Counted from the first letter of the stretch, positions 7,393-46,783 are shown. The stretch: 64,000 nucleotides of DNA from Microbacterium sp. (GCA_029239635.1 JARBUN010000013.1:12667-76666); one strand, 5' to 3'. Numbers and translations are program-made. The notes: generated by a model from the letters alone, not told the origin.

Positions 7393-7560
7393 ATGCTCAC
7401 TTCCGCCGCCGTCACCGCCACCCTCGTCCTCGCCCTCTCCGGATCGCCCGCGGCAGCTCCCGCCCCCGTTCCCGCCGCCGTCTCGGCCGTCTCGGCGGAC
7501 GCTTCGCAGGCGTACCTCCCGCTGAACTTCTGGTGCGCGTTCCTCCGCATGTGCAAGTGA
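7393..7560 (+). CDS. Small secreted peptide (55 aa) with C-terminal NFWCAFLRMCK; candidate signalling/inducer peptide
   Basis: Signal-peptide-like N-terminus MLTSAAVTATLVLALSGSPAAA; GAAGGG upstream; high GC3; first gene of the RiPP operon. Confidence 0.75.
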   Translation: MLTSAAVTATLVLALSGSPAAAPAPVPAAVSAVSADASQAYLPLNFWCAFLRMCK

Positions 7561-7600: not shown

Positions 7601-9559
7601 ATGAGCGCGACCATCGTCACCCCGGCACCGGTCCGGCGCGAAACCCTCGACGCAGCGGACCGCGCTCGGCCTTTCCTCCGCCGGGACACCTTCTACGCCG
7701 AAGCGGACGACGGAGTCCAGTTCGCCTCCGCTGGGCCGGCCTTCCACCTGAGCGGACGCGGTTCCTTCCCGGTCTTCGAGCGGATCGCGCCGTTCCTCGA
7801 CGGTCAGGTGTCCCGCGCGGAGTTGCGCGCAGCTCTCGGCCCCGTGCACTGGCCGGTCGTCGAGCGGATCCTCGGCCATCTCGCCGAGCGCGGCTTCCTC
7901 CGCTGGATCGCCCAGGAGGACGTCGACACGGTCGGGGAGGACGACCGCACCGCCTACGCCGAGCAGATCGCGTTCCTCGCGCAGTACACCGACACCCCCC
8001 ACGCTTCGTTCGCGATGTTCCGCGATGCGCCCGTCTCTCTCGTCGGGCAGTGCCCGCTCGGTGACGCCGTCGTCCAGAACCTCGCGGCGAACGGGCACCG
8101 CGACCTGACCGTCGTCGACACGTCCGAAGCGGGCCCGCTCTCGGACGATGCCCGTGACGCGGTCCACCTGCTGATCCTGCCCACGGCCGAGGCCTACGCG
8201 TGGTTCGCGCGGCATCGGGGGCAGCTGGATCCCGCGCGGTGCCTGCTCGTCCTCCCCGTCGGCGACCGGCTGTGGGTCCTGCCCCACGCGTGGCGTGCGG
8301 ACGCCCACGCCGCGCCGGACTGGAAGGATGCCGTCATCGCGCTCGAGGGGGCCGGGGTCGCCCCCGCCCTCGAAACGCTGTTCGCCGCGGCGGAGGAAGG
8401 CCTCACCCCGCTGCAGGGTCGCGCCGCATCGGTGCAGGTCCAGCGGATGCTGGGTGCTCTGCTCTCGTACGAGATCTTCAAGGGTCTCACCGGGGCTCTC
8501 GCCCCCGAGACCGAGGCAGGTGCCATCTCGCTCGACGCGACCACCGGCGAGACCGTGGCGCACCGCATTCTTCCCAGCACGCAGCGCAGCCGCGTGACGT
8601 CCGCACCCGCGTCCTCCCCGACGAAGAAGGCCACGAGCCTCACACCCGACGACTCTCGACCGGACGATTACGGACGGTGGGAGCGTCTCGTCGGTTCCCT
8701 CACCATGCCGATCACGGGGTTCGCGGACGAGCACCTGATCCAGCTCCCCCTGAAGGTCGCCGTCGCGACGACGAGCGAGGGCGCCGCGGTCCGGGCACCG
8801 AGCCTCTGGACCCTCGCCGACGCGCGGAGCGAGGCGATCGCCCGCGTGTACGAGGAGCTCGTCGCGAGCCTCGAACCGCCCCGTCCGCTCCTGCCGTTCA
8901 CGTCGTTCGACGGCGAGAGGGCCGAAATCGACGCGGCGCGGATCTTCCGCCGTTCTCGCGCGAATGCGGCCGGGCGCTATGAGCGTTCCGCCGCCGCGGT
9001 CGGTGTCGCCCTCACCGAGGGGGATGCCGTGCTCCGGGCGCTCTTCAAGGCGGCCACCGAGCACCTCCTGCTGCAGCACGTGTCCGAGCCCGCCGGGGCC
9101 GTGCTGTCCGCCGCTCCCGAAGGCACCGTCCTCACCTTCCTCGCCGATGCCTCCGCCGGCTCGGGCGACCTCGGGTACATCGCCCTCGGGTCGCTCGCCG
9201 TCGCCGGGACGACGCTCGAGGTCCACGTGGTGATCGCGACGCTCGCCGTGGACGACCGCCTGCTGTGGCACGTCGCGGCCGGAGACAGCGCCGCAGCCGC
9301 CGCCGCCACCGCGGCGACCGAGGTGATCGCCCTCGGCCAGTACGACGATGCGGGGGCGAGGACACCGTCGATGGAGATCTGGCCCGGCATCGACCCTCGC
9401 GCCCTCGTCGCCGCGGAGACCCCGGAAACCGCGGAGACCGCGGAGACCGCGGAAGCCGTGACGCGCACGACGCGGGCACGGGTGGTCGCCGCGTCCCTTC
9501 GCGCCCCCGTGCTCACCGCCGCCGACCTCCACGCCGCCGCCGCGGTCGTGCTCGGATGA
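7601..9559 (+). CDS. TOMM/ocin-ThiF-like leader-peptide-binding protein (RRE plus E1-like plus degenerate YcaO-like region)
   Basis: RPFLRRDTFY...PFLDGQ RRE; YAEQIAFLAQY; SYEIFKGLTG; ERLVGSLT...QLPLKV docking-like segment. Confidence 0.8.
   Translation: MSATIVTPAPVRRETLDAADRARPFLRRDTFYAEADDGVQFASAGPAFHLSGRGSFPVFERIAPFLDGQVSRAELRAALGPVHWPVVERILGHLAERGFLRWIAQEDVDTVGEDDRTAYAEQIAFLAQYTDTPHASFAMFRDAPVSLVGQCPLGDAVVQNLAANGHRDLTVVDTSEAGPLSDDARDAVHLLILPTAEAYAWFARHRGQLDPARCLLVLPVGDRLWVLPHAWRADAHAAPDWKDAVIALEGAGVAPALETLFAAAEEGLTPLQGRAASVQVQRMLGALLSYEIFKGLTGALAPETEAGAISLDATTGETVAHRILPSTQRSRVTSAPASSPTKKATSLTPDDSRPDDYGRWERLVGSLTMPITGFADEHLIQLPLKVAVATTSEGAAVRAPSLWTLADARSEAIARVYEELVASLEPPRPLLPFTSFDGERAEIDAARIFRRSRANAAGRYERSAAAVGVALTEGDAVLRALFKAATEHLLLQHVSEPAGAVLSAAPEGTVLTFLADASAGSGDLGYIALGSLAVAGTTLEVHVVIATLAVDDRLLWHVAAGDSAAAAAATAATEVIALGQYDDAGARTPSMEIWPGIDPRALVAAETPETAETAETAEAVTRTTRARVVAASLRAPVLTAADLHAAAAVVLG
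9412..9457 (+). repeat. In-frame 9-bp tandem repeat encoding (AET)n
   Basis: GCGGAGACC-like units give AAETPETAETAETAEA. Confidence 0.7.
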
Positions 9560-11199
9560 CGGGACGGACCGTGAAGCTGCTGACATCCGACCGCTACGTG
9601 CTCGCCCCCGCGCCGCACCACTGCACCGAGTGCGCCCGCAAGCGCCTCGGCGACATGGATGACTTCCAGCTCCGCAGTCCCGCGGACCGGCGCCGATCGG
9701 TGAGCGCCGCCGCGACGAACCCCTTCCTCTCGATCTTCGTCGACGCTTTCGTCCCGGATCTCACGACCGTCGACGAGCGTTACACGGCCATCGGCGTGCA
9801 CGATCTGCGCGTGCACCACGGTGAGGTCGTGGACGCGGCGCACTGTCCGCACGCCCGCGCCTCGGTCGTCGTGCCGCGGGAGCGCGGCGACGGGTACCGC
9901 CCCTATCCGCTCGCGGGATATTTCGCGACGGCCCCGGAGGCGCCCGAGCTGTGCAACCCGGTGACGGGGGTCCTGTCGGCTCACGCGACGGACGACGTCG
10001 CTTCGCTCGTGACCGCGAAGGTCTCGGGGTTCACGATGTCGCACGGCGAGCACGGCCCCTACGTCCGCGCGTGGGGCGGGCACTGCGAGAGCTATGCACG
10101 ATCGCGGTGGGTCGGGCTGGTCGAGGGCATCGAGCGCATCTGCTGCGCCGAGCCGTCTCCGGCGGACCTGTGGGGCGCGGTCCCCGAGGGCGTGCGCGAG
10201 ATCGGGCTGGACGAGTTCGGAGTGGATGCCGCGTCCTGGCGGATCCCCCACCCCGTCGTCGGCACGTGGACCCTCGGCCGGGACCTGGTCACGGGAGAAC
10301 CCGTCGCCCTACCGACACGGACCGTCTTCTACGAGGCACCGATCGCCGATCCGGTCTACGTCCAGGACTCGTCCAGCGGGTGCGCGGCCGGAGGCAGCGA
10401 CGCCGAAGCCACGCTGTTCGGTCTGCTCGAAGTCGTCGAACGCGATGCCTTCCTCCTTGCCTGGTACGGCGACCTCCCGCTCCGGGAGATCCGCACCGAC
10501 AGCATCCGCGACGAGGAGTCCCGCCATTACCTGCAGCGGCTGAGACTCGTCGGACGCACCGTGCGCTTCCTCGACGCGACGGTCGGGGTCGGCATCCCGA
10601 CCGTCGTCGCGGTGTGCGACACGGCATCCGGGGGCGTCTGCCTGGGCGCGGGGTCGCACCCCGACCCGGAACGCGCGCTGAAATCGGCGCTCGTCGAAGT
10701 GGCATCCGATTTCCAGGTCATCGAGACCCGCGTTCATCAGCGACGCAACGAGCTCGAGGACATGCTGCGGGACCCCGACGGCGTCCGCGGCGTCGAAGAC
10801 CACGCCGACCTGTACGGGCTGCCCGGCGCCCGCGAATGGCTGACCACGTGGGCGCACACTCCGACCCCCGTATCGACGCAGGTCGCGCTCGCGGAGCTGC
10901 GTCGGAACGCCGCCGCGGGCGCCGGCGTCGAGACGGACCTGGATCTCGTCGTCGAAGCGATCGCCGCCGCGGGGTTCTCGCCCCTCGTCGTCGACGTCGG
11001 CTCGAGCCTGTCCCGCCGCTACGGGTTCAGCTGCGTCAAGGCGGTCGTCCCGGGCCTGCTGCCCATCGATTTCGGGTGGTCGAACCAGCGCGCGCTGCGC
11101 ATGCCGCGCCTCCGCGAGCAGAGCGAGCGCTGGCTACGGCAGCACGGCGGTGCCGACGAGACCTTCCTGCCGCACCAGCGCCCCCACCCGTTTCCTTGA
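9556..11199 (+). CDS. YcaO cyclodehydratase (azoline-forming)
   Basis: N-terminal CTEC, VEGIERIC, SSGCAAG...LLEVVERDAFL ATP-binding motifs, C-terminal PHPFP; ATGA overlap. Confidence 0.92.
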   Translation: MTGRTVKLLTSDRYVLAPAPHHCTECARKRLGDMDDFQLRSPADRRRSVSAAATNPFLSIFVDAFVPDLTTVDERYTAIGVHDLRVHHGEVVDAAHCPHARASVVVPRERGDGYRPYPLAGYFATAPEAPELCNPVTGVLSAHATDDVASLVTAKVSGFTMSHGEHGPYVRAWGGHCESYARSRWVGLVEGIERICCAEPSPADLWGAVPEGVREIGLDEFGVDAASWRIPHPVVGTWTLGRDLVTGEPVALPTRTVFYEAPIADPVYVQDSSSGCAAGGSDAEATLFGLLEVVERDAFLLAWYGDLPLREIRTDSIRDEESRHYLQRLRLVGRTVRFLDATVGVGIPTVVAVCDTASGGVCLGAGSHPDPERALKSALVEVASDFQVIETRVHQRRNELEDMLRDPDGVRGVEDHADLYGLPGAREWLTTWAHTPTPVSTQVALAELRRNAAAGAGVETDLDLVVEAIAAAGFSPLVVDVGSSLSRRYGFSCVKAVVPGLLPIDFGWSNQRALRMPRLREQSERWLRQHGGADETFLPHQRPHPFP

Positions 11200-11214
11200 G
11201 CCGGAGAACCTGAC

Positions 11215-12747
11215 ATGTCGATTCACGCTTGGCCCGGCGTCCTCCCGGGGACGGCAGCCGTCCGTTACGCGCACCTCATCCTCGATCGCGTGCGGGACGG
11301 GATGCCGAACGACGACTGGAAGGTCGACTGGACGAACGCCCCCCTCACGGTGGCCGACTACCGAGACGCGCCGCTGCGCCTCATGGATGCCGACGAGTCG
11401 ACCGACGTCGACGGAGCCGCGCCCCGTGCTCTCAGCCGCACGATCGCCGCGGTCTGTCTGAGCGCCTACGGCATCACGGGTCCGCGACTCAACGTCAACC
11501 TCAACGACCGCCCCGAGGTCCACGCGCGGGTCGCGAACGTCAAGTGGGGACGCGGAGCCGCATCGGGCGGGGGCCGTTACGGCATCGACCTCTATCTCGT
11601 CCACGGCGGAGACGACGCACTGGACGCGGGTGTCTATCACTTCAGCGTGATCGCCAACGGGTGGGAGCAGCTGCAGCGCCACGACCGCACCCGCGAGGTC
11701 CGCGGCATCCAGAGCTACGTCCGCGAGGCGCGGTCGTACCTCGTGGCGACCGTCAACTTCTGGCGCTCGGCGTTCAAGTACAGCGATTTGGCCTACCAAG
11801 CGACGGCGATGGACGTCGGAACGTTCTTCGGTGCGCAGTGGGAGACCCTCGGCGACGACGTCGCGGGCACGTGGGACATGGAGGTCGACGAGACGGGTCT
11901 CGCCGCCCTGCTCGGCATCGATCCCCGGGATCAGGGCGTGTACGCCGTGCAAGCGTGGGGGCCGATCCCGGCAGGAGCGGCGCGCGAGGTCGTCGTGCCG
12001 GCGCCTCCGCCGGTCGCGGCGTTCCGTCGCGACCGCGCGGTCGTCCGCTTCCCCACCGCGACCGCTCTCCAGGACGACATGCGCCGGGAGAGCCCGGATG
12101 TGTCGGCACGGACGAAGCTCGCGATCGTCCCCGACACCACCGTCCCCGACGACGCGGGCCGCCGTCGCCTCGCCGCCCGGGAGACGAGCTTCGGTCGCTT
12201 CAGCGGAGAGTCCATCACCGAGGACGCGCTCGACCGGATCGTCGCTCGCGGCCGATCCGCCGCCCACGCCCTCACCGGCGGGGCTCCCCACGCGCCCGCG
12301 CTCTCGTTCCTCATCTACGCCCACCGGGTCGAGGGGCTCGAACCGGCCTTGTACCTCGACGACGAAGAGGGGCGTCGTCGCCTCGACGACGGCGATCAGT
12401 CGTCGTTCCTCGAGAGCACGTACTTCCTGCACAACTACATGGGGCGGCGCGCCGCGTGCACTCTCATCGTGTGTGCCGCCGTGATCGACGCCGCTCGCAC
12501 GCGCGGCGTGCGTGGATACCGCGTGACGAACGCGGTCGTCGGCGCCGCGTGCCAGGCGCTGCTCACCGACGCGAACGCCGTCGGAGTCGCCACGGGCACC
12601 GCCCTCGGATTCGACGCCGCCGCCCACGCGCGGCACGCCGGGATCGATCCACGGGAGAGCACCCCGATGCTCATGATCATGCTGGGGGTCGACACCCCGG
12701 GCTCGGGACGCGTGCGCGCCGACATGACGGCCGAGGTGGCGTCGTGA
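11215..12747 (+). CDS. SagB-type FMN-dependent azoline dehydrogenase (tandem nitroreductase domains)
   Basis: RGAASGGGRY, GVYHF, FWRSAFKYSDLAY; second domain RETSFGRF...RGYRV...TALGFD. Confidence 0.9.
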   Translation: MSIHAWPGVLPGTAAVRYAHLILDRVRDGMPNDDWKVDWTNAPLTVADYRDAPLRLMDADESTDVDGAAPRALSRTIAAVCLSAYGITGPRLNVNLNDRPEVHARVANVKWGRGAASGGGRYGIDLYLVHGGDDALDAGVYHFSVIANGWEQLQRHDRTREVRGIQSYVREARSYLVATVNFWRSAFKYSDLAYQATAMDVGTFFGAQWETLGDDVAGTWDMEVDETGLAALLGIDPRDQGVYAVQAWGPIPAGAAREVVVPAPPPVAAFRRDRAVVRFPTATALQDDMRRESPDVSARTKLAIVPDTTVPDDAGRRRLAARETSFGRFSGESITEDALDRIVARGRSAAHALTGGAPHAPALSFLIYAHRVEGLEPALYLDDEEGRRRLDDGDQSSFLESTYFLHNYMGRRAACTLIVCAAVIDAARTRGVRGYRVTNAVVGAACQALLTDANAVGVATGTALGFDAAAHARHAGIDPRESTPMLMIMLGVDTPGSGRVRADMTAEVAS

Positions 12748-15410
12748 GCGCGGCCGTGGACGCTCGGTGGCAGCTGAGATTCGGGGGGTTGCCGGCATCC
12801 GTCGTCCGCGAGCTGGAAGACCCGGCGCACCGCGACAGCTTCGGAGCCTTCTGGGATGCCTCTCGGCACCTGTCCGCGGCGAAGCAGGCCGTGAGCGACG
12901 CCCTGCACGGCCTCATCTCCGCGCGGCGGGAGGCGGGGGCGGAGACCGCGACGCTCGTCGCCCTCCGTCGCGCCCTGTTCAAGCAGGACGCCGACGCGGT
13001 CGAGCGTCGCCTCGCGGCCCTCACCCCGCTCGAGCGAGACGGCGTGCTCGACCGCCTCGGGGAGCATGCGGAGCCGCTGCGGGCATGGCTGGCGCACGAG
13101 CGCCGGCACCGCGAGGACTTCGACGAGATGCTCGCCGGGCAGCGCACACGGCTCTGGGAACAGGTGGCGCAGCACGGCTTCCTTCCGGGTCTCGCCCTCT
13201 CGGCCCCCGACCTCGTCGCCGAGGTCGACCGGTACGGCCGGGAGCTCGCGGCGCAGGGACGGGTCGACAAGCGGGGCAAGCGCGTCGAACGCTCGCTCGT
13301 GTCGTACGTGACCCGAGCGGCGGCGAAGACGACGCCGTTCTCCTCCCTCGGTCCTGTCGCCTTTCCCGGTGCGACACCGCGCTCGAGCGCCGAGGAGGGC
13401 CGCTTCGCGCGCTCCCGCTGGTCGGTGTATCCGCTCGCCCGCGTGCTGTCGGCGATCGCCGAGGACGCGGACCTCGTCGCGGGAGTCTCACTCCGCCGCA
13501 GCCCGTACGTCCGGCGACAGGATGCCGCGACCCTCGTCGACCGTGCGACCTGGACGTTCTCCGAGGTCGACACCCGCGACGACTACGCGGCGTGCGTCGA
13601 ATCCCGCGTGCGCCTTCCCGCGGAGGGCGTCCTCGCCGCGGTCGACGAGATCATGGACCGGCTCGGGGACGACACGACGTGGGGTGCGCTGACGGACGAG
13701 CTCGTCGACTCGGCGGGTCTCGACCATGACCGCGCCTCGGACCTCGTCGCCAGCCTCGTTCGGCTCGGCGTCCTCGTCGCCCCCGCACTGACGATCGACG
13801 CGTTCGACGCGGACGCCTTCGACACCACTCTGGAGCAGATCGCCGGCGGCGGCTCGCGCGCCGAAGAGATCGCCGTCGCTCTGCGCCGCTATCGGGACGA
13901 CGCCGCCGCCACGGTCGACGTCGTCGATCCCCGCGAGCGCGCCGCGCACGTCCAACGGCTCCGCGGGCTGGTCGCGGACATCTACGCCACCGCGGGAATC
14001 ATCGCCGAGCCGCCGCGATCGGTCGTCTACGAAGACGTCGTCTTCCCCGCGTCCGGCTCGAGTCTCGCGGAGCCGCTGGCGACCTCGGCATCCGGTGCCG
14101 ATGCTCTTCTGGCCTTCGTCGATCTGCTCGACACGAGTCACGTGAAGCGCGATCTCCTCACCGGCTATTACCGCCACCTCCGCGAGGCCGGAGAGGAAGT
14201 CGACGATGTCGCCGCGTTCCTGCGAGGTTTCGACGTCGACCTGCTCGAGTCGTTCGAGGGCTACGTCCTCTCCGACATCGCCGACGACGAGCTCGAGACC
14301 GACCCGTGGCTCCGCTGGGGCGGCGCGTGGCGACGCGAAGCGGCCCGCCGTGAGCTGCTGTCGGTCCTCCTCCGCCACCAGCGCGCCGTCCCCTTCGACG
14401 GCATCGACATCGCGGCCGAACTGGACGCGCCGCCGGTCGACCTCGAGGCGGAGGCGCGCCGGATCTCCGCGACGACCTCGCGTCTGACGGCGCCGTTCCG
14501 TCACCTCAATCTCCTCCTCCAGCACGACGTCGCGTCGGGGGTCACCGTGATGAACGACTGCTTCGGCGGGGTCGGCTTCTCGGTCTCCCGCTTCTCCCAC
14601 GTCATGTCCGAGCCGGCGTCGGAACTCACCGACGACGTCGAACGGGCCGCCGAGACCGCGGGCGTGCGGCTCGTGGAGATCAGCGGCGGAACCGTCTTCT
14701 CGAATCTGAACCTGCACGCCCCCGTACTGCTCGTCCGCTTGGCGGTGCCGGGCGACCCGGTGCGACCGGGAGACTCCGGCATCCGGCTCGACGACCTCGC
14801 GGTGCGATGGTCGGACGCCCACGAGCGGGTCATGCTCGTCGAACGGGCCACGGGGATGATCGTCCACCCGGAGTACGCGGGCTACCTGGTGCCGGCGGCG
14901 ACGCCTCGCCTGCATCAGTCGCTGTCCCTGCTGACCCCCTCGGCGAGCCTGAGCTCGAAGCCCGCGGATCTGCTGCGGGTCGTCCCGGAGGCCGGCACGG
15001 TCGTCGTGCGCCGCCGCATGAGCATCGGCGACGTCGTCGTGGTGCGCGCGGCCGCCCTCCTCCGCGGCTCCGACGTGCCGACACACGATCCGCTCACGCG
15101 CGAGGGAAACCTCGCGTGGCAGCGCTTCTGGGCGCGCCACGCGCTTCCGCCCCGCGCGTACGTGCGCGTGCTCCACGGGACTCCCGGTCGACGGGCGAAG
15201 CCGTTCTTCCTCGACGTGACGCTCGCGCTGTGCCTGTCGAACCTGCACAGCCAGATGAGGGATGCCGAGGACCAGACGGTCCTCGAGATCACCGAGGCGC
15301 TGCCCGACCCCCACGGCGCGGCCGAACGAGGCGACGGATCCCCCCGTGTCGCCGAGGCGATGGCGGGCGTCAGCATCATCGACCGATCGACCTGGAAGGA
15401 AAGCGTATGA
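12744..15410 (+). CDS. LanB-type dehydratase, glutamylation domain (split LanB)
   Basis: YVTRAAAKTTPFSSLG, VYED, FSRF-like, NLNLH, KPFFLD and EALPDP motifs; GTGA overlap; 888 aa. Confidence 0.9.
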   Translation: MSAAVDARWQLRFGGLPASVVRELEDPAHRDSFGAFWDASRHLSAAKQAVSDALHGLISARREAGAETATLVALRRALFKQDADAVERRLAALTPLERDGVLDRLGEHAEPLRAWLAHERRHREDFDEMLAGQRTRLWEQVAQHGFLPGLALSAPDLVAEVDRYGRELAAQGRVDKRGKRVERSLVSYVTRAAAKTTPFSSLGPVAFPGATPRSSAEEGRFARSRWSVYPLARVLSAIAEDADLVAGVSLRRSPYVRRQDAATLVDRATWTFSEVDTRDDYAACVESRVRLPAEGVLAAVDEIMDRLGDDTTWGALTDELVDSAGLDHDRASDLVASLVRLGVLVAPALTIDAFDADAFDTTLEQIAGGGSRAEEIAVALRRYRDDAAATVDVVDPRERAAHVQRLRGLVADIYATAGIIAEPPRSVVYEDVVFPASGSSLAEPLATSASGADALLAFVDLLDTSHVKRDLLTGYYRHLREAGEEVDDVAAFLRGFDVDLLESFEGYVLSDIADDELETDPWLRWGGAWRREAARRELLSVLLRHQRAVPFDGIDIAAELDAPPVDLEAEARRISATTSRLTAPFRHLNLLLQHDVASGVTVMNDCFGGVGFSVSRFSHVMSEPASELTDDVERAAETAGVRLVEISGGTVFSNLNLHAPVLLVRLAVPGDPVRPGDSGIRLDDLAVRWSDAHERVMLVERATGMIVHPEYAGYLVPAATPRLHQSLSLLTPSASLSSKPADLLRVVPEAGTVVVRRRMSIGDVVVVRAAALLRGSDVPTHDPLTREGNLAWQRFWARHALPPRAYVRVLHGTPGRRAKPFFLDVTLALCLSNLHSQMRDAEDQTVLEITEALPDPHGAAERGDGSPRVAEAMAGVSIIDRSTWKESV

Positions 15411-16468
15411 GCGCCGTGATCCCCCTCCCCCACAGCCCCGGGGCGACCCGCGTGGACGACGAGGACGCACGCTGGGTGTCCTTCCACGTCTTCTACGGCG
15501 GTTCTCCCGACATCCTGCTGACCGAGTGTCTGATCCCCCTCGCCGACGCGCTCGTGCGCGACGGGGTCGTCCGCGACTGGTTCTACATCAACTACTGGCT
15601 CGAGGGCAGCCATGTCCGGCTGCGGCTGCGCGTTCCTCGCGAACGCACCGACGCCGCTCTCGACAGCCTCGTGCTCCCCGCCGTCGAGAGCTATCTCGCG
15701 CGCAAACCCTCGATGCATCCGATGCTCGAGCTCGCCGACAACGGCTTCTACGAGCGACTCTTCGTCGGGGAGTTCACGGATGCCGATCGCCCGCGCCACT
15801 TCGACGACGACGGCGTCCCGCTCTTCCGGCCCAACAACTCGATCGAGCGGCGCGACTACGAACGGGAGACCTTCCGCTACGGCGGCCCGGAGTGCATGAT
15901 GCTCGCGGAGGAGCACTTCGTCGCCTCGACGCGCCTCGCGTGCGACGTGATGGGCGGAGGGAACCAGAACGTCCGGAGCCTCCTGCTGGGCATCGCCTCG
16001 CAGCTCAGCTTCGTGACCGCCTGCACGCTGCTGCGTGACCGCGATCTCGTCGCCGATTTCTTCGTCGCGTATCACCACCGATGGGCCTCCGGCTACGCCG
16101 AAGAGACCCCCTACGCCACCGAGAAGGGGCGCCGCACTCACGCCCTGACCGCCGTCAACCTCCGCCGCCGTCTCCTCCCGCTCCTCGACCGCCTCGTCGC
16201 CGACGACCTGGAGGGGATGCCGCAGCGGCTCCGCGACTGGGCGCAGACGAACCGCCGCGTGCGCGCGGGATTGGACGAGCTGTTCGACAGGGACGTCCTC
16301 CGCTTCGACTACCAGGACGGACGGCGGGCGCCGGAGTCGCCGTCGGCGGCGGCGTGGTCGCTGTGCCACTCGCTCATCCACATGACCAACAACCGCATGA
16401 TGGTGTCGGTCGCCGACGAGGCCTTCATCGCGTACCAGATCGCCGAAGCGATGGGGACGCCGGCATGA
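15407..16468 (+). CDS. Glutamate elimination protein (Lant_dehydr_C / thiopeptide-type biosynthesis protein)
   Basis: WVSFHVFY, WFYINYWLEGSHVRLR, YERETFRYGG, HMTNNRM...DEAFIAY. Confidence 0.9.
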   Translation: MSAVIPLPHSPGATRVDDEDARWVSFHVFYGGSPDILLTECLIPLADALVRDGVVRDWFYINYWLEGSHVRLRLRVPRERTDAALDSLVLPAVESYLARKPSMHPMLELADNGFYERLFVGEFTDADRPRHFDDDGVPLFRPNNSIERRDYERETFRYGGPECMMLAEEHFVASTRLACDVMGGGNQNVRSLLLGIASQLSFVTACTLLRDRDLVADFFVAYHHRWASGYAEETPYATEKGRRTHALTAVNLRRRLLPLLDRLVADDLEGMPQRLRDWAQTNRRVRAGLDELFDRDVLRFDYQDGRRAPESPSAAAWSLCHSLIHMTNNRMMVSVADEAFIAYQIAEAMGTPA

Positions 16469-17580
16469 GCGGCGAGACGCCCACGCCGGTGCTGCCCGAC
16501 ACCGCCCCGTGGCGCCCCCTGGTCGCCCCGGGCGTGCAGGTGGGTCCGGCCCGGTGGAACGGCGAGCAGCTGAAGAGCGACGCGTCCGTCGCCGGGCAGA
16601 ACCGCATCCTGCGTCTCGGTCTGCGGGAGCGACTGATCCTCGACGCGATCGACGGGCGGCGGACGGTGGCGGAGATCCACACGTCCCTGACCGATCAGGG
16701 GCTCCCCGCTCCTGCCGAGGTCGTCGTGGCATCCCTGAACCGGTTCCTCGCCTTCGGACTCGTCGAGCGCCCGTTCACCGTGGCGGCCCCGACGATCGAG
16801 GCACTCGACACGCGAGCCGAGATCGCCGCCGAGAACCTTTCCGAGGTGTGGGCCACGGGAGCCCGTTCCGGTCGGGCGTCGCGGGTGCGGTCGGCGCTCG
16901 CGTCGTGGCCGTCGTTCGTCGTCGCACTCGTGATCGGCGCCGCCGCCACGGTCCTGGCCGCGACGGCATGGCCTGCCGCCGTGATCGCGGTGACGCACCT
17001 CACGAACCCTCTGTGGCTCGTGCCCGCCGCCGTGCTCGCGGTGGTCTGGAACCTCGGGGTCACCCTCGCGCACGAAGGGGCTCACATGAGCACCTTCCGC
17101 GCGCTCTCCGGGCGGAGCGCGCGCCTGTCGGTGACGCGCCTCGGCGTCGTCCCGATGATCAACACCCAGCTCGACGGTGTCGGTCTGCTCGATCCGGGGC
17201 GGAAGGTGCGCGTCGTCGCGAGCGGCCCGCTCGTCTCGCTGCTCGCGCTCCTCGTGCCGTGGACCGTCTTCGTCCTCGCCCCCGGGGGCAGCGTCCTCGA
17301 GCTCTTCGCCGCCGCGTCGCTCCTCCTCGACCTCGCGGTCGTCGGCCTCGCCCTGTCGTTCTTCCCCAACACCGACGGCAGTCGACTCCTCGAGGCGGTG
17401 GCATCCGTCGATCAGATCCAGGCTGTCGCCTTCCGCACCATCTCCCGGCGCTACCGCCTGCCTCGCGCGCTCCCGCTGCTCACCCGCGTCGCGGTCCGCG
17501 TCTATCCAGTCTTGCTCTCAGCGACCGTCCTGGCGGTGCTGCTGGCGGGAGTGCTCGTCGTCCGGCTGGCACTGAGCTGA
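16465..17580 (+). CDS. RRE(PqqD-like)-M50 membrane metallopeptidase fusion
   Basis: N-terminal ILDAIDGRRTVAEI winged helix; TM helices with HEGAH, SGPLVS and FPNTDG site-2 protease motifs. Confidence 0.82.
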   Translation: MSGETPTPVLPDTAPWRPLVAPGVQVGPARWNGEQLKSDASVAGQNRILRLGLRERLILDAIDGRRTVAEIHTSLTDQGLPAPAEVVVASLNRFLAFGLVERPFTVAAPTIEALDTRAEIAAENLSEVWATGARSGRASRVRSALASWPSFVVALVIGAAATVLAATAWPAAVIAVTHLTNPLWLVPAAVLAVVWNLGVTLAHEGAHMSTFRALSGRSARLSVTRLGVVPMINTQLDGVGLLDPGRKVRVVASGPLVSLLALLVPWTVFVLAPGGSVLELFAAASLLLDLAVVGLALSFFPNTDGSRLLEAVASVDQIQAVAFRTISRRYRLPRALPLLTRVAVRVYPVLLSATVLAVLLAGVLVVRLALS

Positions 17581-17619
17581 GTCGCACCCGCGGCTCGGCA
17601 CACCTTCGAAAGGGAAATC

Positions 17620-17805
17620 ATGAACAACCTGTCATCGCTCGCCGTCGAACTGGACGCCTTCGAGGTCGACACCCTCGAGGTCAAGGACTACGTCGACTAC
17701 TCCGAAATGGCGTTCGGCTCCACGTGTTCGTCGTCCTCGTCGTCGTCCTGCTCGTCGACGTGCACCTCGTGCTGCACCTCGACGTCGTCGTGCGCCACGG
17801 CCTGA
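17620..17805 (+). CDS. RiPP precursor peptide 1 (acidic leader plus Ser/Thr/Cys core)
   Basis: Leader MNNLSSLAVELDAFEVDTLEVKDYVDYSEMAFG, core STCSSSSSSSCSSTCTSCCTSTSSCATA; GAAAGGG RBS. Confidence 0.95.
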   Translation: MNNLSSLAVELDAFEVDTLEVKDYVDYSEMAFGSTCSSSSSSSCSSTCTSCCTSTSSCATA

Positions 17806-17834
17806 CCCCGGGCTGATCCCCGCTTCACCCCACT

Positions 17835-17873
17835 TGCGGTGCTGGGGCGAGCATCCCTCGTCCCAGCACCGCA
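17835..17873 (+). other. 17-bp stem-loop after precursor 1 (mRNA stabiliser or leaky terminator)
   Basis: TGCGGTGCTGGGGCGAG-CATCC-CTCGTCCCAGCACCGCA; no U-tract. Confidence 0.7.
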
Positions 17874-17892
17874 TCACCTGAAGGAGAGCATC

Positions 17893-18807
17893 GTGAACCC
17901 ATCGGATCCGTGGGCGGTGGACGTCTCGGACGTCTCGCTGGCCATCCGCGGCAAGAACATCCTGTCCGGCGTCGACCTCAAGGTGGCCGCCGGCACCTTC
18001 CACGGCATCATCGGCCCCAACGGCGCGGGGAAGTCGACCCTGTTCGACGTCATCCTCGGATTCCGAGCCCCGACCTCGGGCAGCGTCCGCGTCCTCGGCA
18101 AGCCGACGCGTCCCCGCGATGTCGAGCTGTACCGCCAGGTCGGGGTGCAGCCGCAGCGGACGGCCTTCTTCCCCAAGCTGAACGCGCTGGAGCACCTCAC
18201 GGCGCTGGCCCACATCTACGGGATGGGCGCCTCGCGCATCACCACGCTCATGGAGGCCCTCGATCTCACGCGCCACGCCGCAACGCGCACCGAGAAGCTC
18301 TCCGGCGGCGAGCGCCAACGGCTCGCGATCGCCTCGGCGCTCGTCCATCAGCCGCGCGTCCTCTTCCTCGACGAGCCGACGGCCGGGCTCGACCCCACGG
18401 CGCGGCACAACCTCGTCGAGATGCTGCGCTCCGGGGAGTTCCGAGACATGACCACCATCTACACGACGCACTACCTCGAAGAGGCCTCGCGCCTGTGCGA
18501 TGTCGTGTCGATCCTCGATCGCGGCCGGGTGCTCGTGACCAAGTCGCCCAACGAGCTCGTGTACGAGACGGGGAGCGAGACGTCCATCCTGCTGCCGGCC
18601 GCCGTGCACCAGGCCGACCTCGTCGCTCGGCTCGACGCGATCACGACGGTCGACGTCGATTCGGCGGGGCTGCGCGTGCGCACGCGCGAGGTCGGACGCG
18701 CCTTCGAAGCCCTCGCGGCCGCGGGCATCGACATGACCAACTCGCAGGTCACGAGCGGGTCCCTCGAGGACGCGTTCATGGCATACACCGGACGGAGCTT
18801 CGAATGA
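17893..18807 (+). CDS. ABC exporter ATP-binding subunit
   Basis: GPNGAGKST, LSGGERQR, LFLDEPT, TTHYLEEA; GTG after AAGGAG. Confidence 0.95.
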   Translation: MNPSDPWAVDVSDVSLAIRGKNILSGVDLKVAAGTFHGIIGPNGAGKSTLFDVILGFRAPTSGSVRVLGKPTRPRDVELYRQVGVQPQRTAFFPKLNALEHLTALAHIYGMGASRITTLMEALDLTRHAATRTEKLSGGERQRLAIASALVHQPRVLFLDEPTAGLDPTARHNLVEMLRSGEFRDMTTIYTTHYLEEASRLCDVVSILDRGRVLVTKSPNELVYETGSETSILLPAAVHQADLVARLDAITTVDVDSAGLRVRTREVGRAFEALAAAGIDMTNSQVTSGSLEDAFMAYTGRSFE

Positions 18808-19550
18808 CCACGGCGACCACCACGCTCTCGCGTGTCATGTTCAAGGCGGATCTCCGCGATTTCGCCACCCTGTTCTTCACCTTCGTGTTCCCGGCGGGCC
18901 TTCTCGTCGGCCTCGTCCTCGGGATGGGACAGATCCCCTCGCCGCACGGTGGCGACTCGGTCAACGAGATCTCGTCGAACGTGGTCGCCTTCGGCATCGC
19001 GTTCGTCGCGGTCTTCGCGGGTGCTCAGCACATCTCGGCGTGGCGCGAGAACGGCATGCTCAACGTGCTGCGATCCGCTCCGGTCGGGTCGGGGCACGTC
19101 CTCGCGGCGCAAGCGGCCGTCGGGGCCATCCTCGCCATCGTCCAGGCCGTGTTCCTCATCGTGATCGCGGTCACTCCCTGGCTGGGGATGCAGCTCGTCC
19201 CGACGGCACCGCTCGGCATCCTCGGAGTCGCCCTCGGTTACTTCTTCTTCTTCGGCCTCGGCGTGATCCTCGCCAATCTCGTCCCCTCGATGACGGCCGT
19301 CACGATGCTCTCGTTGATCGTCGTGATCGGGCTCGGACTCGTGGGCGGAGCGATGATGCCCGTCGAGTATCTGCCGACATGGGTTCAGGACATCGCCCCC
19401 TACACCCCGGTCTTCCACATCAGAGAGGTGCTCACCTTCCTCCTCGTCGGCGTCGGCGACTGGGGCCAGGTCGGAATCTCCAGCGCGTACCTCCTCGTCA
19501 TCGGTGCAGGGCTCTTCCTCGTCGCCCGCAAGACGATGCGTCTGAGCTGA
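18804..19550 (+). CDS. ABC-2 type exporter permease
   Basis: Six hydrophobic segments; WRENGML and LPTWVQDIAPYTP motifs; ATGA overlap. Confidence 0.9.
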   Translation: MTTATTTLSRVMFKADLRDFATLFFTFVFPAGLLVGLVLGMGQIPSPHGGDSVNEISSNVVAFGIAFVAVFAGAQHISAWRENGMLNVLRSAPVGSGHVLAAQAAVGAILAIVQAVFLIVIAVTPWLGMQLVPTAPLGILGVALGYFFFFGLGVILANLVPSMTAVTMLSLIVVIGLGLVGGAMMPVEYLPTWVQDIAPYTPVFHIREVLTFLLVGVGDWGQVGISSAYLLVIGAGLFLVARKTMRLS

Positions 19551-19554
19551 TCCC

Positions 19555-21261
19555 ATGATCGGTCTCGCGCACAGCGCCCCGTCGCGCGACAGCGCCGCGG
19601 TCTGGACCGCGCCGGCAACCGTCGTCGTCGGCGCGGGAGGCATGACCCACGCCGAGCGGGACGCCGTGATCGCCGACCGGTGGTTCCGGGCACGGCCCCA
19701 TGTGCAAGCGCAGGTGGTGTCGCGGTCCGGTGTGCGCAGGGTCGGCGGGCCGGAGGACGGCGAGCTGCTCGGTCGGATCGTGCGCTCTCTCCGTGACTTC
19801 GCGTCGGCCGGTGCGGCCGAGGCGACGAACGTGTGGGAGGTCGACCAGCGTTCGGGACTCATCCGGCACACCGAGTTGATCGAGATCGCGACACCGAGCA
19901 GCGGGTCCGCGGCGCAAGCCCCCCGAGTGGATGCCGTCTCCCTGCGCGAGCGCGATCTCGCCGGCTGGGAGTGGGAGTCGGCGGGTCTCATCGACCCGAT
20001 CGCCGCCCTCCTCGCCCCCGAGGTGACGGATGCCGTGGCGTGCCCGACCCTCGCGCCCGCCTCGGGCGCGACAGCCACCCGGACGCGTGACAGCGCCCGA
20101 CGCCTCACGTGGTCGGGGCAGGGGGAATCGTTCGCGGGTTCTCGGCGCTCCGCCGTCGTCGAGGGAATCGAACGGCTGGTCGGCGGGCAGCAGTTCACCC
20201 CGCGGCATCCGCTGAGGTCGGCGCGGTCGCTCGAGGGGCGTGTGCTGACGCCCCGGGCGTTCGACCCCTACCTCGACGCGGCCTACGGGCACCTCGTCGA
20301 ACGCTTCGACGCCGAGACGCCGCACGAGTGGGTGCCGGGCTCCTCGTTGCGCGACGACGCGCACGTCTGGATTCCTCGCGAACTCGTCTACTACGCCGAG
20401 ATCCCCGAGAACGGACGATGGGCTCTGGGGACGTCCTCGGGGTGCGCGACGGGCAGTTCCCTCGATGAGGCGACGGTCTTCGGTCTGCTCGAGCTCATCG
20501 AGAGAGACACCTTCGTCAACGCCTGGTACGGCGGTATCGATGCCGTGCCGGCCCTGACCGAGGGGTTTCCCGGTGCCGCCGGGATGCTCGCCCGTGTGCG
20601 CCTGCTCGGCTGGCGGATGGAGCTCGGACTCCTGCGCAACGCCTGGAACATCCCCGTCTTCGTCGCCGCCGTCGACACGGGCGAGGTCCGCGCTTTCGGC
20701 GCCGCCGCCCATCTCGACGTCGCGACCGCCGGTCTGCGCGCGATGACCGAAGCGGTCGCCTACGCCCCCGGACGCATCTTAGAAGTCGCCGACAACGCCC
20801 ACAGGGTCGACGAGCTTCGCCGCGACCCGCGCCGCGCGCGGCACATCGAAGACCACCCGTTGCTTCCCGTGCGGGGCGCGCATCCGGCCTACGCCACGAT
20901 GTGCGGGGATCCGCGAGAGGCTCTGCCGCTCGACGAGATCTCTTCGTTCGCGGATGCCGGGACCCGTCTCTTCCGCGAAGGCGACAGCCGTGCGGGGGTC
21001 GACATCCGCGGCATCCGGTCGGCTCTCGTCCGACTCCTCGCCGATGAGGGGATCGAGACCTTCCGGGTCGTCCAGAGCGCCCCCTTCGAGAAGCAGCTCG
21101 GCCTGGAGACGGTGATGACACTCGCCCCCGCCCTGTCGCAACTCGACTTCGGGTGGGAGGCGCAACGCGTCCGCACCTCGACGCGGCCCCTCGACCAGGC
21201 CCGACTGCTCACCGGCCGCCGCCCGTCCGCGCTCCGCGACCTGCCGCACCCGTTCTCATGA
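19555..21261 (+). CDS. Second YcaO-family protein
   Basis: VEGIERL, TSSGCATG...LLELIERDTFVNAWY, LDFGW, C-terminal PHPFS. Confidence 0.9.
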   Translation: MIGLAHSAPSRDSAAVWTAPATVVVGAGGMTHAERDAVIADRWFRARPHVQAQVVSRSGVRRVGGPEDGELLGRIVRSLRDFASAGAAEATNVWEVDQRSGLIRHTELIEIATPSSGSAAQAPRVDAVSLRERDLAGWEWESAGLIDPIAALLAPEVTDAVACPTLAPASGATATRTRDSARRLTWSGQGESFAGSRRSAVVEGIERLVGGQQFTPRHPLRSARSLEGRVLTPRAFDPYLDAAYGHLVERFDAETPHEWVPGSSLRDDAHVWIPRELVYYAEIPENGRWALGTSSGCATGSSLDEATVFGLLELIERDTFVNAWYGGIDAVPALTEGFPGAAGMLARVRLLGWRMELGLLRNAWNIPVFVAAVDTGEVRAFGAAAHLDVATAGLRAMTEAVAYAPGRILEVADNAHRVDELRRDPRRARHIEDHPLLPVRGAHPAYATMCGDPREALPLDEISSFADAGTRLFREGDSRAGVDIRGIRSALVRLLADEGIETFRVVQSAPFEKQLGLETVMTLAPALSQLDFGWEAQRVRTSTRPLDQARLLTGRRPSALRDLPHPFS

Positions 21262-21854
21262 CCCGTTCCCCCGCCTCAGGCCCGGTGCGGAAAGCGCACG
21301 GGACGACCGTCTCGCTTCTGGCATTCGCCGCGCTGTACGTCGTCGCCCTCGCGTGGGCGCCCACCTGGTGGTGGGCGACGGGTGCCGCGGTGCTCGGGGC
21401 CGGGATCGCCCTGGGGGCGTGGTGCCTCGCGCGCCGAGCGCGGCACCCGGCTCGACAGCCGGGTGCCCGCGCGCTCCGGGCTGTCGCCCTGACGTCGTTC
21501 ACCGAAGCCGTCGGACTCACCGCCGCCGTGGCGACGTTCCTGGTCGCCGACCTCCGCTGGCTCGCCCTCCCCCTTCTCCTGACGACGGTGACGGTGCACG
21601 TGGCGAGCCTCGCGGTGGCCTTCCGCCGAGCCGCCGACGCGTGGGCTCTCGGGTGGATCGTGGTGGCGACGGTGATCGCGTGGAGCTGCGGACCGGATGG
21701 AACGGCCTGGGCCTGGCCCGTGTCCGGCGCGCTCGCCGCGGGCATGTGCGTCGGGTACGTCCTCGCCCTCCATTCGGCTCGACGATCGGGTCGCGTGCGC
21801 GCCGACTCGTCGCCTGACGTGTCGGTTCGCGAATCGGCATCCCCTGCGACGTGA
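21258..21854 (+). CDS. Membrane protein of unknown function (possible immunity protein)
   Basis: ~6 TM segments; ATGA-coupled to the second YcaO. Confidence 0.7.
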   Translation: MTRSPASGPVRKAHGTTVSLLAFAALYVVALAWAPTWWWATGAAVLGAGIALGAWCLARRARHPARQPGARALRAVALTSFTEAVGLTAAVATFLVADLRWLALPLLLTTVTVHVASLAVAFRRAADAWALGWIVVATVIAWSCGPDGTAWAWPVSGALAAGMCVGYVLALHSARRSGRVRADSSPDVSVRESASPAT

Positions 21855-21889
21855 CCACGCTCGCAGACCATCCCTGAAAGGAAGACGCA

Positions 21890-22072
21890 ATGAAACTCGC
21901 ATCCCTCGCCGCCGAACTGGACGCCTTCGAGGTCGAGACCCTCGAGGTCAAGGACTTCGTCGACTACTCCGACATGGCCTTCGGCTCGACGTGTTCCTCG
22001 TCGTCGTCGTCCTCGTGCACATCGACGTGCGCCTCGACGTGCGCTTCGACCTCCTCGTGCGCCACGGCGTGA
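21890..22072 (+). CDS. RiPP precursor peptide 2
   Basis: Leader MKLASLAAELDAFEVETLEVKDFVDYSDMAFG, core STCSSSSSSSCTSTCASTCASTSSCATA; paralog of precursor 1; GAAAGGA RBS. Confidence 0.95.
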   Translation: MKLASLAAELDAFEVETLEVKDFVDYSDMAFGSTCSSSSSSSCTSTCASTCASTSSCATA

Positions 22073-22109
22073 TGCCCGCGCGCTGGTGATGTCCGAGCGC
22101 TGACGATCT

Positions 22110-22156
22110 CGCGCGCCGGTGGGGCGGCGGTCGGGCCGTCGTCCTTCCGGCGCGCG
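22110..22156. terminator. Hairpin between convergent operons
   Basis: CGCGCGCCGG...CCGGCGCGCG long GC-rich stem. Confidence 0.6.
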
Positions 22157-22193
22157 GTGGGCGGATGTGGATATCAGGCGACCGTGCGCTCCG

Positions 22194-26698: not shown

Positions 26699-26725
26699 GG
26701 GCGTGACCCCTTCCTCATCGCGGCC

Positions 26726-28360: not shown

Positions 28361-28438
28361 TGAGGTCCCCTAGCGTTCGAATGCGGAGCGCCACCCGGAA
28401 CGGGCGTCGAGTGCGATACCCGAGGAACGCTACGCAAC

Positions 28439-28476
28439 CAAAACGTTTTGTTTGTTTCAGAATGAAAACGATTTGG
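28439..28476. promoter_or_regulatory. Two LacI-type operators
   Basis: Perfect palindrome CAAAACGTTTTG (28439-28450) and TGAAAACGATTTGG (28463-28476), between the divergent SBP and LacI genes. Confidence 0.75.
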
Positions 28477-28506
28477 GAGCCGCGTTCACGCGGGTATCCT
28501 GCTCTC

Positions 28507-31944: not shown

Positions 31945-32229
31945 TCAGTTCCGCTCCCAGTCCCCCACCCACCAGTCGCTGATCGTGGCCAGTGTTTCTC
32001 CGACGGCGAGGTGCGCACGGGTCACGCGCCACGCGTCGAATGCGGCGCGGTCGACGAACGTCCCATCCTCGACGATCACCCGCCCTTTGCGCGTATCGAG
32101 CGACAGCGCGATATCCCACGAAAGGATGCCGGGACCCTCCCCCACCGCACGCAATTCCGCGATTGCCGCCGAAACGTCCGGGTCCGCGACATCGTCGCGG
32201 ACCCGGAACAGAACAACGTGGCGGAACAT
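31945..32229 (-). CDS. Dabb family (stress-responsive alpha/beta barrel) protein
   Basis: MFRHVVLFR N-terminus, 94 aa. Confidence 0.8.
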   Translation of the reverse strand: MFRHVVLFRVRDDVADPDVSAAIAELRAVGEGPGILSWDIALSLDTRKGRVIVEDGTFVDRAAFDAWRVTRAHLAVGETLATISDWWVGDWERN

Positions 32230-46774: not shown

Positions 46775-46783
46775 AGCGACGAC

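What the first reader, a model, noticed from the sequence alone, without database searches (positions are those of the whole stretch)
7601..22072. Complete-looking RiPP cluster for a hyper-modified linear azole/dehydroamino-acid peptide, with no pyridine synthase
Seen: a largely translationally coupled operon of leader-binding/E1-like protein, YcaO, SagB dehydrogenase, LanB glutamylation protein, one elimination protein, RRE-M50 protease, precursor, ABC exporter, second YcaO, membrane protein and second precursor. Established: YcaO plus SagB make thiazoles/oxazoles, and split LanB makes Dha/Dhb. Thiopeptides additionally need a TbtD/TclM-type [4+2] enzyme, whereas goadsporin-type linear peptides lack it and carry an N-acetyltransferase. 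Here there is only one Lant_dehydr_C-like gene (HMTNNR, elimination-type) and no acetyltransferase. Inference: the architecture fits neither class cleanly, so the product may be a new RiPP subclass.
Basis: partly seen in the sequence, partly recalled or inferred. Interest (0 to 1): 0.9.

Follow-up and report, generated by a model that had tools for sequence, protein, structure and literature searches.

The report
Coryneazolisin-like linear azole peptide cluster
This intact 12-gene bacterial operon likely makes a linear peptide packed with azole rings and dehydrated residues; it is a new branch of a family already predicted in 2015 (coryneazolisins), not a new class, though this branch's product appears not to have been isolated.

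Summary
The operon is real and intact: F-type leader-binding protein, YcaO1, SagB, split LanB, RRE-M50 protease, precursor 1, two ABC genes, YcaO2, membrane protein, precursor 2. The single Lant_dehydr_C gene is an elimination enzyme. It keeps the NisB-type Arg/Arg/Arg/His set, has His where TbtD has its catalytic Tyr, and falls on the elimination side of a tree. No pyridine synthase, acetyltransferase or TfuA was found. Cox et al. 2015 described this architecture (two YcaOs, split LanB, no [4+2] enzyme) as 'coryneazolisin'. Loci I fetched with those precursors share gene order, leader (13-15 of 29 identical) and enzyme clades with the window. A very common Streptomyces sister family is probably the spongiicolazolicin family (unverified). 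What differs here: a 28-residue core with 24-26 Ser/Thr/Cys, Cys in a 4-residue register (3-residue in Streptomyces), two precursors and a likely Microbacterium host. My searches found no product for this branch. Verdict: new variant of a known kind; a good isolation target, with the role of YcaO2 (atypical C-terminus) open.

The parts
7601..9559 (+). Ocin-ThiF / TOMM F-type leader-binding protein (652 aa)
   Evidence: TIGR03693 E 1.2e-9 on residues 23-177, below cut-off; Atlas neighbours named thiazole-containing bacteriocin maturation protein, score 0.94; 23% identity over 594 columns to the first gene of a coryneazolisin-type locus
9556..11199 (+). YcaO1 cyclodehydratase (547 aa), canonical Pro-rich end PHPFP
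   Evidence: PF02624 E 4.6e-57; TIGR03604 207.8 bits, cut-off 219.25; ATP/Mg motifs kept
11215..12747 (+). SagB-type FMN azoline dehydrogenase (510 aa)
   Evidence: PF00881 E 2.3e-12, TIGR03605 E 3.7e-17
12744..15410 (+). Split LanB glutamylation protein (888 aa)
   Evidence: Orthologue profile hits TbtB E 2.7e-61 and goadsporin protein 9jhq E 2.9e-32; 9 of 11 members hit PF04738; R12, Y188, R191, K195 invariant
15407..16468 (+). Split LanB glutamate-elimination protein (353 aa), not a pyridine synthase
   Evidence: PF14028 E 2.3e-39; R71, R73, R157, H325 kept; NF045556 85.4 bits against cut-off 325; elimination side of tree
16465..17580 (+). RRE-fused M50 (site-2) membrane metalloprotease (371 aa), likely leader peptidase
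   Evidence: HExxH 203-207 and Asp304; HExxH in 20 of 21 related loci examined; orthologues hit PF02163; weak RRE-type hit NF050149 on residues 43-101
17620..17805 (+). Precursor 1 (61 aa); 28-residue C-terminal tract with 14 Ser, 6 Thr, 6 Cys
   Evidence: NF033400 50.1 bits, cut-off 30; identical in L002; composition
17837..17870 (+). Predicted stem-loop after precursor 1 (possible mRNA-stabilising or attenuating hairpin)
   Evidence: 14-bp hairpin in a fold of 17803-17870; function inferred
17893..18807 (+). ABC exporter ATPase (DrrA-like)
   Evidence: PF00005, TIGR01188
18804..19550 (+). ABC-2 permease
   Evidence: PF12698, PF01061
19555..21261 (+). YcaO2 (568 aa); ATP/Mg motifs kept, ends PHPFS rather than PHPFP
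   Evidence: PF02624 E 1.2e-53; groups with the second YcaO of coryneazolisin-type loci, FastTree support 1.0
21258..21854 (+). Membrane protein (198 aa), possible immunity or export accessory
   Evidence: No Pfam hit; Atlas leads only: putative permease 0.94, cluster with DUF7010 on 15% of members 0.93; tblastn homologue behind YcaO2 in L002, L003, L005, L006
21890..22072 (+). Precursor 2 (60 aa); 28-residue tract with 13 Ser, 6 Thr, 5 Cys
   Evidence: NF033400 39.7 bits; identical in L002
22110..22160 (+). Long G+C-rich hairpin closing the operon (approximate ends)
   Evidence: Fold of 22070-22175, -66.2 kcal/mol with two hairpins; terminator role inferred; not found by the U-tail scan

Best explanation
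The operon likely makes one or two linear, non-macrocyclic peptides in which Cys and some Ser/Thr would become azoles and neighbouring Ser/Thr would become dehydroamino acids; it belongs to the coryneazolisin lineage of two-YcaO, split-LanB clusters. Proposed order (enzyme families shown, each step inferred from family knowledge): (1) the F protein binds the acidic leader and presents the precursor to the YcaOs; (2) YcaO1 and YcaO2 cyclodehydrate Cys/Ser/Thr with ATP, probably dividing residues or positions, and SagB oxidises azolines to azoles; (3) the glutamylation protein transfers Glu from Glu-tRNA to remaining Ser/Thr, and the 353-aa protein eliminates it to give Dha and, being of the anti type, (Z)-Dhb; (4) with no [4+2] enzyme, the RRE-M50 protease removes the leader at the membrane, leaving a 28-mer (cut after Phe-Gly) or about a 35-mer (cut after the D[YF]VD motif); (5) the ABC pair exports the product and the 198-aa membrane protein may protect the cell. 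The 4-residue Cys register predicts repeated Dha-(methyl)oxazole-thiazole-X bis-azole units.
For: Elimination identity: HVRLRLR / YERExxRYGG / HMTNNR align with NisB and MibB. NisB Arg784, Arg786, Arg826 and His961 are the elimination residues (PMC9486935 and PMC4341554 passages). The 12 TbtD-type pyridine synthase rows instead show N-x-x-Y-x-x-x-x-R and no YGG motif. TbtD chain Tyr322 (the catalytic Y319 of PMC12018205 if the chain carries a 3-residue tag, inferred) aligns to the window's His325. Tree: pyridine synthases (18 rows) are split from elimination proteins (40 rows) at SH-aLRT 98; the window sits in a 98-supported 15-row clade with five coryneazolisin-type proteins (quick tree). 28 of 28 family loci hold one such ORF; 4 of 4 thiopeptide control loci hold two. 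Published architecture: PMC4603692 section 26. Same gene order in L052-L056. Leader identity 13-15 of 29, 0 of 2000 shuffles reach the score. YcaO2 and YcaO1 group with their coryneazolisin counterparts, support 1.0 and 0.82. A dedicated M50 protease sits in the slot where thiopeptide clusters have the leader-removing pyridine synthase. Cys register: period 4 in 13 window-type cores (0.66 vs 0.47, 0 of 1000 shuffles), period 3 in 30 Streptomyces-type cores (0.85 vs 0.60, 0 of 1000).
Against: No product has been measured. Foldseek ranks TbtD/PbtD first for the 353-aa model (TMq 0.63-0.67) above NisB, MibB and MadB (0.46-0.52), and sequence searches of the PDB also rank TbtD first. No stand-alone elimination protein appeared among the hits, so the comparison is lopsided, but it does favour the rival. 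NCBI's precursor families and Cox Table S2 label the sister family 'thiopeptide'. The core does not fit the published coryneazolisin core pattern. The genome is 85% complete, so an unlinked pyridine synthase is not excluded. The tree is the quick version, and related cores are not independent, so the shuffle counts overstate significance. YcaO2's non-canonical end is unexplained.
Confidence: 0.75

Rival explanations
1. YcaO2 does not form azolines but carries out a different backbone reaction (amidine ring or macrocycle, or ATP-dependent trimming as MusD does), so the product is cyclic or end-capped without a pyridine synthase.
For: All 12 YcaO2 proteins of the window/coryneazolisin clade end in FS or FA (HPFS, HAFS or HPFA), not FP, and form their own clade (support 1.0), while their YcaO1 partners keep a terminal Pro. 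TIGR03604 score is lower (154.6 vs 207.8). A conserved C-terminal CATA tail is present in the 13 window-type cores, which were selected on that ending. MusD precedent: PMC10885120 passage.
Against: YcaO2 keeps all ATP/Mg motifs and a Pro-His-Pro-Phe end. Its best PDB matches are the azoline-forming TruD and LynD, ahead of MusD. The second YcaO of the Streptomyces sister family ends in canonical PHPFP. Two-YcaO azole-only clusters are known (recalled: berninamycin, sulfomycin).
Confidence: 0.12
2. The 353-aa protein is bifunctional (elimination plus [4+2] cycloaddition), or an unlinked pyridine synthase acts in trans, giving a true thiopeptide.
For: Best structural and PDB sequence matches are TbtD/PbtD. 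NF045556 aligns over profile positions 1-310. The precursors match 'thiazolylpeptide' models and the tract begins with Ser. The genome is 85% complete.
Against: It lacks the TbtD-type Tyr and downstream Arg. Elimination partners of real thiopeptide clusters are as long (312-344 aa) and score as high on a pyridine-synthase profile (70-109 bits in four controls vs 62 for the window; true synthases 518-571). 28 of 28 family loci lack a second such gene, and 3 of 5 related whole genomes hold only one PF14028 match. A dedicated leader protease would be redundant.
Confidence: 0.07
3. Some Cys escape cyclodehydration and add to Dha/Dhb, giving thioether-bridged (lanthionine-like) rings, so the product is partly cyclic.
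For: The core holds 5-6 Cys among 19-20 Ser/Thr, with adjacent Cys-Cys in precursor 1. Nostatin A is an azole/Dha peptide with an internal sulfur bridge (PMC11583998 passage).
Against: No LanC, LanM or radical-SAM family was found in or around the operon. YcaOs generally prefer Cys (recalled).
Confidence: 0.06

Closest known systems
Coryneazolisin clusters (predicted TOMM family, Cox et al. 2015, PMC4603692)
   Same: Two YcaOs, split LanB, no [4+2] enzyme, predicted linear. Gene order F, YcaO1, SagB, LanB-N, LanB-C, M50, precursor ... YcaO2. Homologous leader. Elimination protein and both YcaOs in shared clades. No acetyltransferase in the locus scanned.
   Different: Core is 28 residues with 5-6 Cys and a CATA tail, not 10 Cys/Ser/Thr + Ile + 5-7. 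Enzymes are only about 27-35% identical. ABC genes lie inside the operon, before YcaO2, rather than after it on the other strand. Two precursors and an extra membrane protein. Likely Microbacterium, seen in plant and soil metagenomes, not pathogenic corynebacteria.
Streptomyces/Micromonospora NF033400 family, probably the spongiicolazolicin A/B family (link unverified)
   Same: Same gene order through YcaO2 in 8 of 10 Streptomyces loci fetched, plus L011 and L012. One elimination gene, M50 protease, homologous leader (11-13 identical of 27-28). Spongiicolazolicins are linear azole peptides of 29 and 28 residues (PMC8838263) built of tripeptide blocks (PMC11583998). The common Streptomyces precursor has 29 residues after its DYSD motif and a period-3 Cys register.
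   Different: Separate clade; 21-22-residue Ser/Thr/Cys tract, period 3 rather than 4; YcaO2 ends PHPFP; SARP/NB-ARC regulator and M20 peptidase neighbours. The original paper was not held, so the assignment is inference.
Goadsporin (god cluster)
   Same: YcaO, dehydrogenase and split LanB, no [4+2] enzyme, linear azole/Dha product; the LanB profile hits the goadsporin protein 9jhq.
   Different: No acetyltransferase here (GodH recalled); two YcaOs plus an F protein rather than one fused cyclodehydratase; cluster-encoded M50 protease; leader looks unrelated by eye to the Table S2 goadsporin row.
F-protein-dependent thiopeptides (thiomuracin Tbt; cyclothiazomycin-like control loci L058-L060, name recalled)
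   Same: F protein, YcaO, dehydrogenase, TbtB-like and TbtC-like proteins.
   Different: The class-defining pyridine synthase is absent.
Dehydrazoles (carnazolamide) and nostatin A
   Same: Linear, heavily modified azole + Dha peptides.
   Different: They use a LanM-type dehydratase and nitrile-hydratase-like leaders; here a tRNA-dependent split LanB and a short acidic leader.

Membership tests
Thiopeptide / pyritide | [4+2] pyridine synthase (TbtD/TclM/LazC type) in the cluster | tested here: not met
   One Lant_dehydr_C ORF only, elimination motifs, His at the TbtD Tyr position, NF045556 85 vs cut-off 325
Thiopeptide / pyritide | YcaO/dehydrogenase and split LanB machinery | tested here: met
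Thiopeptide / pyritide | Six-membered N-heterocycle in the product | not testable with these tools
   needs MS/NMR
Coryneazolisin (Cox 2015) | Two YcaO (D) proteins of distinct groups | tested here: met
   YcaO1 and YcaO2 are about 28% identical and each groups with its coryneazolisin counterpart
Coryneazolisin (Cox 2015) | Lanthipeptide-like split dehydratase and no [4+2] protein | tested here: met
Coryneazolisin (Cox 2015) | Leader homologous to the published precursors | tested here: met
   13-15 of 29 identical to leaders of L052-L056, 0 of 2000 shuffles; 3 of these 5 precursors match Table S2 rows letter for letter, read by eye
Coryneazolisin (Cox 2015) | Core of 10 Cys/Ser/Thr, Ile, then 5-7 Cys/Ser/Thr | tested here: not met
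   Window tracts are 28 residues, no Ile, end in CATA; hence filed as a sister variant, not a member
Coryneazolisin (Cox 2015) | One discrete and one C-fused D protein | tested here: inconclusive
   Both YcaOs carry 170-190 residues ahead of PF02624 with no family hit
Goadsporin type | Azole + split-LanB Dha, no macrocyclase | tested here: met
Goadsporin type | N-acetyltransferase (GodH, recalled) in the cluster | tested here: not met
   No GNAT family among 12 operon genes, 55 further ORFs and flanking genes
Spongiicolazolicin | Orthology to the sph cluster and precursor | not testable with these tools
   Primary paper not held; no held paper gave the sequence or gene list; only length and register arguments
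Dehydrazole / proteusin | LanM-type dehydratase and NHLP leader | tested here: not met
   No such families; 33-residue acidic leader
Thioamitide | TfuA partner for YcaO | tested here: not met
   PF07812 0 matches in G000 (85% complete); control genome rings

The most novel reading that the evidence does not exclude
The YcaO2 clade with a Phe-Ser/Phe-Ala C-terminus, shared by this branch and the coryneazolisins, performs a non-azoline backbone reaction (amidine or macrocycle formation, or tail trimming) on a poly-bis-azole/Dha chain, giving a thiopeptide-like scaffold closed without a pyridine synthase: a new RiPP chemotype spread through plant-, skin- and mouth-associated actinobacteria.
Probability: 0.12. 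Interest if true: 0.75.

Novelty: new variant of a known kind. Interest (0 to 1): 0.36.

Why it matters
The cluster gives a compact, intact route, outside the pathogenic corynebacteria, into a family predicted in 2015 and, in the library searched, not mentioned again by name. It makes three open questions testable: how two YcaOs and a split LanB share 24-26 modifiable residues of 28 without competing; whether an RRE-fused M50 protease is the leader peptidase of azole/Dha peptides; and whether Cys spacing (4 here, 3 in Streptomyces) sets the modification pattern. It also shows that a large group labelled 'thiazolylpeptide/thiopeptide' in annotation lacks the class-defining enzyme. It is not a new class of system.

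Tried and rejected
Direct Pfam, NCBIfam and PDB searches with the LanB-like protein found nothing; an orthologue profile resolved it. The idea that the 353-aa length and TbtD-like insert mark a pyridine synthase was rejected: elimination partners in true thiopeptide loci are 312-344 aa and score alike. Thioamide role for YcaO2 rejected: no TfuA found. Complex prediction of M50 protein + precursor 1, both without alignments: no verdict. Expression: no RNA holder listed. Five runs guessed to be RNA were laid. In study P11 contigs cover precursor 1 (17519-17833 in X17; 17534-19654 in X15) and precursor 2; contigs of P13 and P14 end at 17820 and 17847; X16 shows scattered pieces. RNA status is a guess and no silent control stretch was laid, so this is a weak hint only and is not used. 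The promoter scan found 0 sites and 1 terminator-like site, no more than shuffles. Spongiicolazolicin, Cogan 2017 and Bothwell 2019 papers were not held. Cluster-member names did not name a spongiicolazolicin producer. Paper searches with no useful result: YcaO+M50+LanB+RRE+azole 0 papers; Streptomyces core motif 0; Microbacterium+thiopeptide+YcaO+linear azol 1 review, seen as a listing only. MIBiG and antiSMASH were not available. Earlier scan findings: none. The careful tree did not finish; the quick tree is cited, with 12 of 18 LazC-like rows left out.


Full report
Observation. ORF listing and translation confirm twelve + strand genes from 7601 to 22072; 6 of 11 junctions overlap by four bases. 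Pfam and NCBIfam identify two YcaOs, a SagB-type dehydrogenase, one Lant_dehydr_C protein, an ABC ATPase and permease, and two NF033400 precursors above cut-off. The 888-aa protein has no hit on its own, but 9 of 11 orthologues match PF04738 and their profile matches TbtB and a goadsporin protein. The 371-aa protein has HExxH and Asp304, and its orthologues match PF02163. The first gene matches the Ocin-ThiF model weakly over its N-terminus. The closest named locus is Microbacterium testaceum NS220, with 86-98% identical proteins and identical precursors, so the host is likely a Microbacterium. Three DNA runs from separate phyllosphere and plant studies cover the whole stretch.

Elimination enzyme or pyridine synthase. 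The genome (85% complete) has one PF14028 match and one weak NF045556 match, both this gene; tblastn with a true pyridine synthase finds nothing at E 1e-6. For controls I searched 301 genomes of the genus of L012 with NF045556: 97 matched, 10 over cut-off. An alignment of 70 proteins from the fetched loci splits cleanly by motif. The window keeps R71, R73, R157 and H325, which align to NisB's elimination residues (PMC9486935 and PMC4341554 passages); Arg at the 826 position marks the anti-eliminating type. Pyridine synthases have Tyr at the His position; in TbtD this is chain residue 322, which I take to be the catalytic Y319 (PMC12018205 passage) given a three-residue tag. A quick IQ-TREE tree of 58 rows separates 18 pyridine synthases from 40 elimination proteins at SH-aLRT 98. 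28 of 28 family loci (up to 10 kb each side; some cut by contig ends) hold one such gene, and 4 of 4 thiopeptide controls hold two. Against this, an AlphaFold model (pLDDT 84.8) matches TbtD and PbtD best (TMq 0.63-0.67) ahead of full-length LanBs (0.46-0.52). No stand-alone elimination protein was among the hits, and elimination partners of real thiopeptide loci score as high on a pyridine-synthase profile as the window does, so I do not weigh this heavily.

The family. The same gene order occurs in Corynebacterium, Gleimia, Arthrobacter, Actinomyces, Brevibacterium, Bifidobacteriaceae, Actinoplanes and Streptomyces (11 loci). A profile search returned 792 proteins among 7994 candidates; the best 120 include many Streptomyces and Micromonospora entries. 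Within the window's genus it is rare: 4 of 401 genomes have any PF14028 match. PMC4603692 (sections 12 and 26 read whole, other passages, and Table S2 rows) describes 'coryneazolisin' clusters with two D proteins, split dehydratases and no [4+2] protein, predicted not macrocyclic. Six of 251 genomes of the genus of L003 matched the window's profile. Five were fetched. They carry precursors of the published pattern, three matching Table S2 rows letter for letter by eye, and the order F, YcaO1, SagB, LanB-N, LanB-C, M50, precursor, YcaO2. Their leaders are 13-15 of 29 identical to the window's, with 0 of 2000 shuffles as high. Their elimination proteins share a 98-supported clade with the window, and both YcaOs group with the window's. 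The core differs, so I file the window as a sister variant.

The Streptomyces sister family. Cox Table S2 labels it 'Thiopeptide', yet 10 of 10 such loci fetched lack a pyridine synthase. It is probably the spongiicolazolicin family: those peptides are linear, 29 and 28 residues long (PMC8838263 passage), grouped with goadsporin as split-LanB products (PMC10676384 passage) and built of tripeptide blocks (PMC11583998 passage). The common precursor has 29 residues after its DYSD motif and a period-3 Cys register. The primary paper was not held, so this link is inference; its text and supplements could confirm or overturn it.

What is particular here. Both tracts are 28 residues with 26 and 24 Ser/Thr/Cys. 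Among 120 listed precursor homologues (346 found among 7959 candidates), 13 distinct window-type cores show a period-4 (and period-2) Cys register and 30 Streptomyces-type cores a period-3 register, each with 0 of 1000 shuffles as high; the cores are related, so these counts overstate significance. This predicts bis-azole units. All 12 YcaO2 proteins of the window/coryneazolisin clade end in Phe-Ser or Phe-Ala rather than Phe-Pro while keeping the ATP/Mg motifs; the best PDB matches are TruD and LynD. Whether YcaO2 only shares azoline formation or does other chemistry is the main open point. If cleavage follows the inferred Streptomyces pattern, the product would be about 35 residues, not 28.

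Mechanism, with status. Shown: gene identities, catalytic motifs, absence of a [4+2] gene, acetyltransferase and TfuA in what was searched. Inferred from family knowledge: leader binding by the F protein (PMC4603692 passage), azole formation before tRNA-dependent dehydration, leader removal by the M50 protease (M50 precedent in epipeptides and pearlins, PMC10885120 passage), export by the ABC pair. Untested: sites of modification, cut site, activity.

Other papers seen as passages only: PMC7616364, PMC7210931, PMC9247985 (first quarter), PMC10885120 section 10. That no product of this branch is in print rests in an open-access library; subscription journals and MIBiG were not searchable.

Verdict. 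New variant of a known kind; interest 0.36.

Noticed in passing
window 7393-7560 (+), with 5301-6053 (-) and 5981-7228 (-): A 55-aa ORF with a hydrophobic signal-like N-terminus and a C-terminal NFxCxxLxxC motif lies divergent from a HisKA_3 kinase and LuxR-type regulator and ends 40 bp before the RiPP operon. The same three-gene module (kinase 49% identical; 56-aa peptide with the same motif, L073:1112-1282) occurs in G049, which has no PF14028 match. The kinase was found in 2 of 201 genomes of the genus at E 1e-60. Possibly a peptide-signal system recruited to control the operon.
   Followed up: partly
window 22194-29556: A C45 hydrolase, oligopeptide ABC uptake system and LacI regulator lie between precursor 2 and an M6-like peptidase gene (29619-31871); in L002 the M6-like gene follows precursor 2 directly, so this block looks inserted or lost.
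   Followed up: partly
L057 (G116:C23:73700-93699): A second cluster of the same superfamily in the window's genus, with four different Cys-rich precursors, one full YcaO, an M50 protease and no pyridine synthase.
   Followed up: partly
L010:1687-3516: In a Bifidobacteriaceae MAG, YcaO1 is moved ahead of the F gene and inverted while the rest of the order is kept.
   Followed up: no
P0176, P0144, P0152, P0154: Short-core (17-residue) precursors with the window-type leader, one named from Cutibacterium acnes, suggest the branch also occurs on skin; their loci were not fetched.
   Followed up: no
window 9400-9460: A short tandem Glu-Thr-Ala repeat near the C-terminus of the F protein varies in length: an 18-nt in-frame loss in run X7 and a shorter protein in L002 (648 aa).
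   Followed up: no
window 32000-48000: GC falls to 62-66% against about 70% elsewhere, a possible acquired island; not examined.
   Followed up: no
L011, L012, L067, L069: Streptomyces-type clusters are followed by an M20 peptidase gene in all four loci scanned; it could trim the N-terminus and explain 29/28-residue pairs. The window has no such gene.
   Followed up: no
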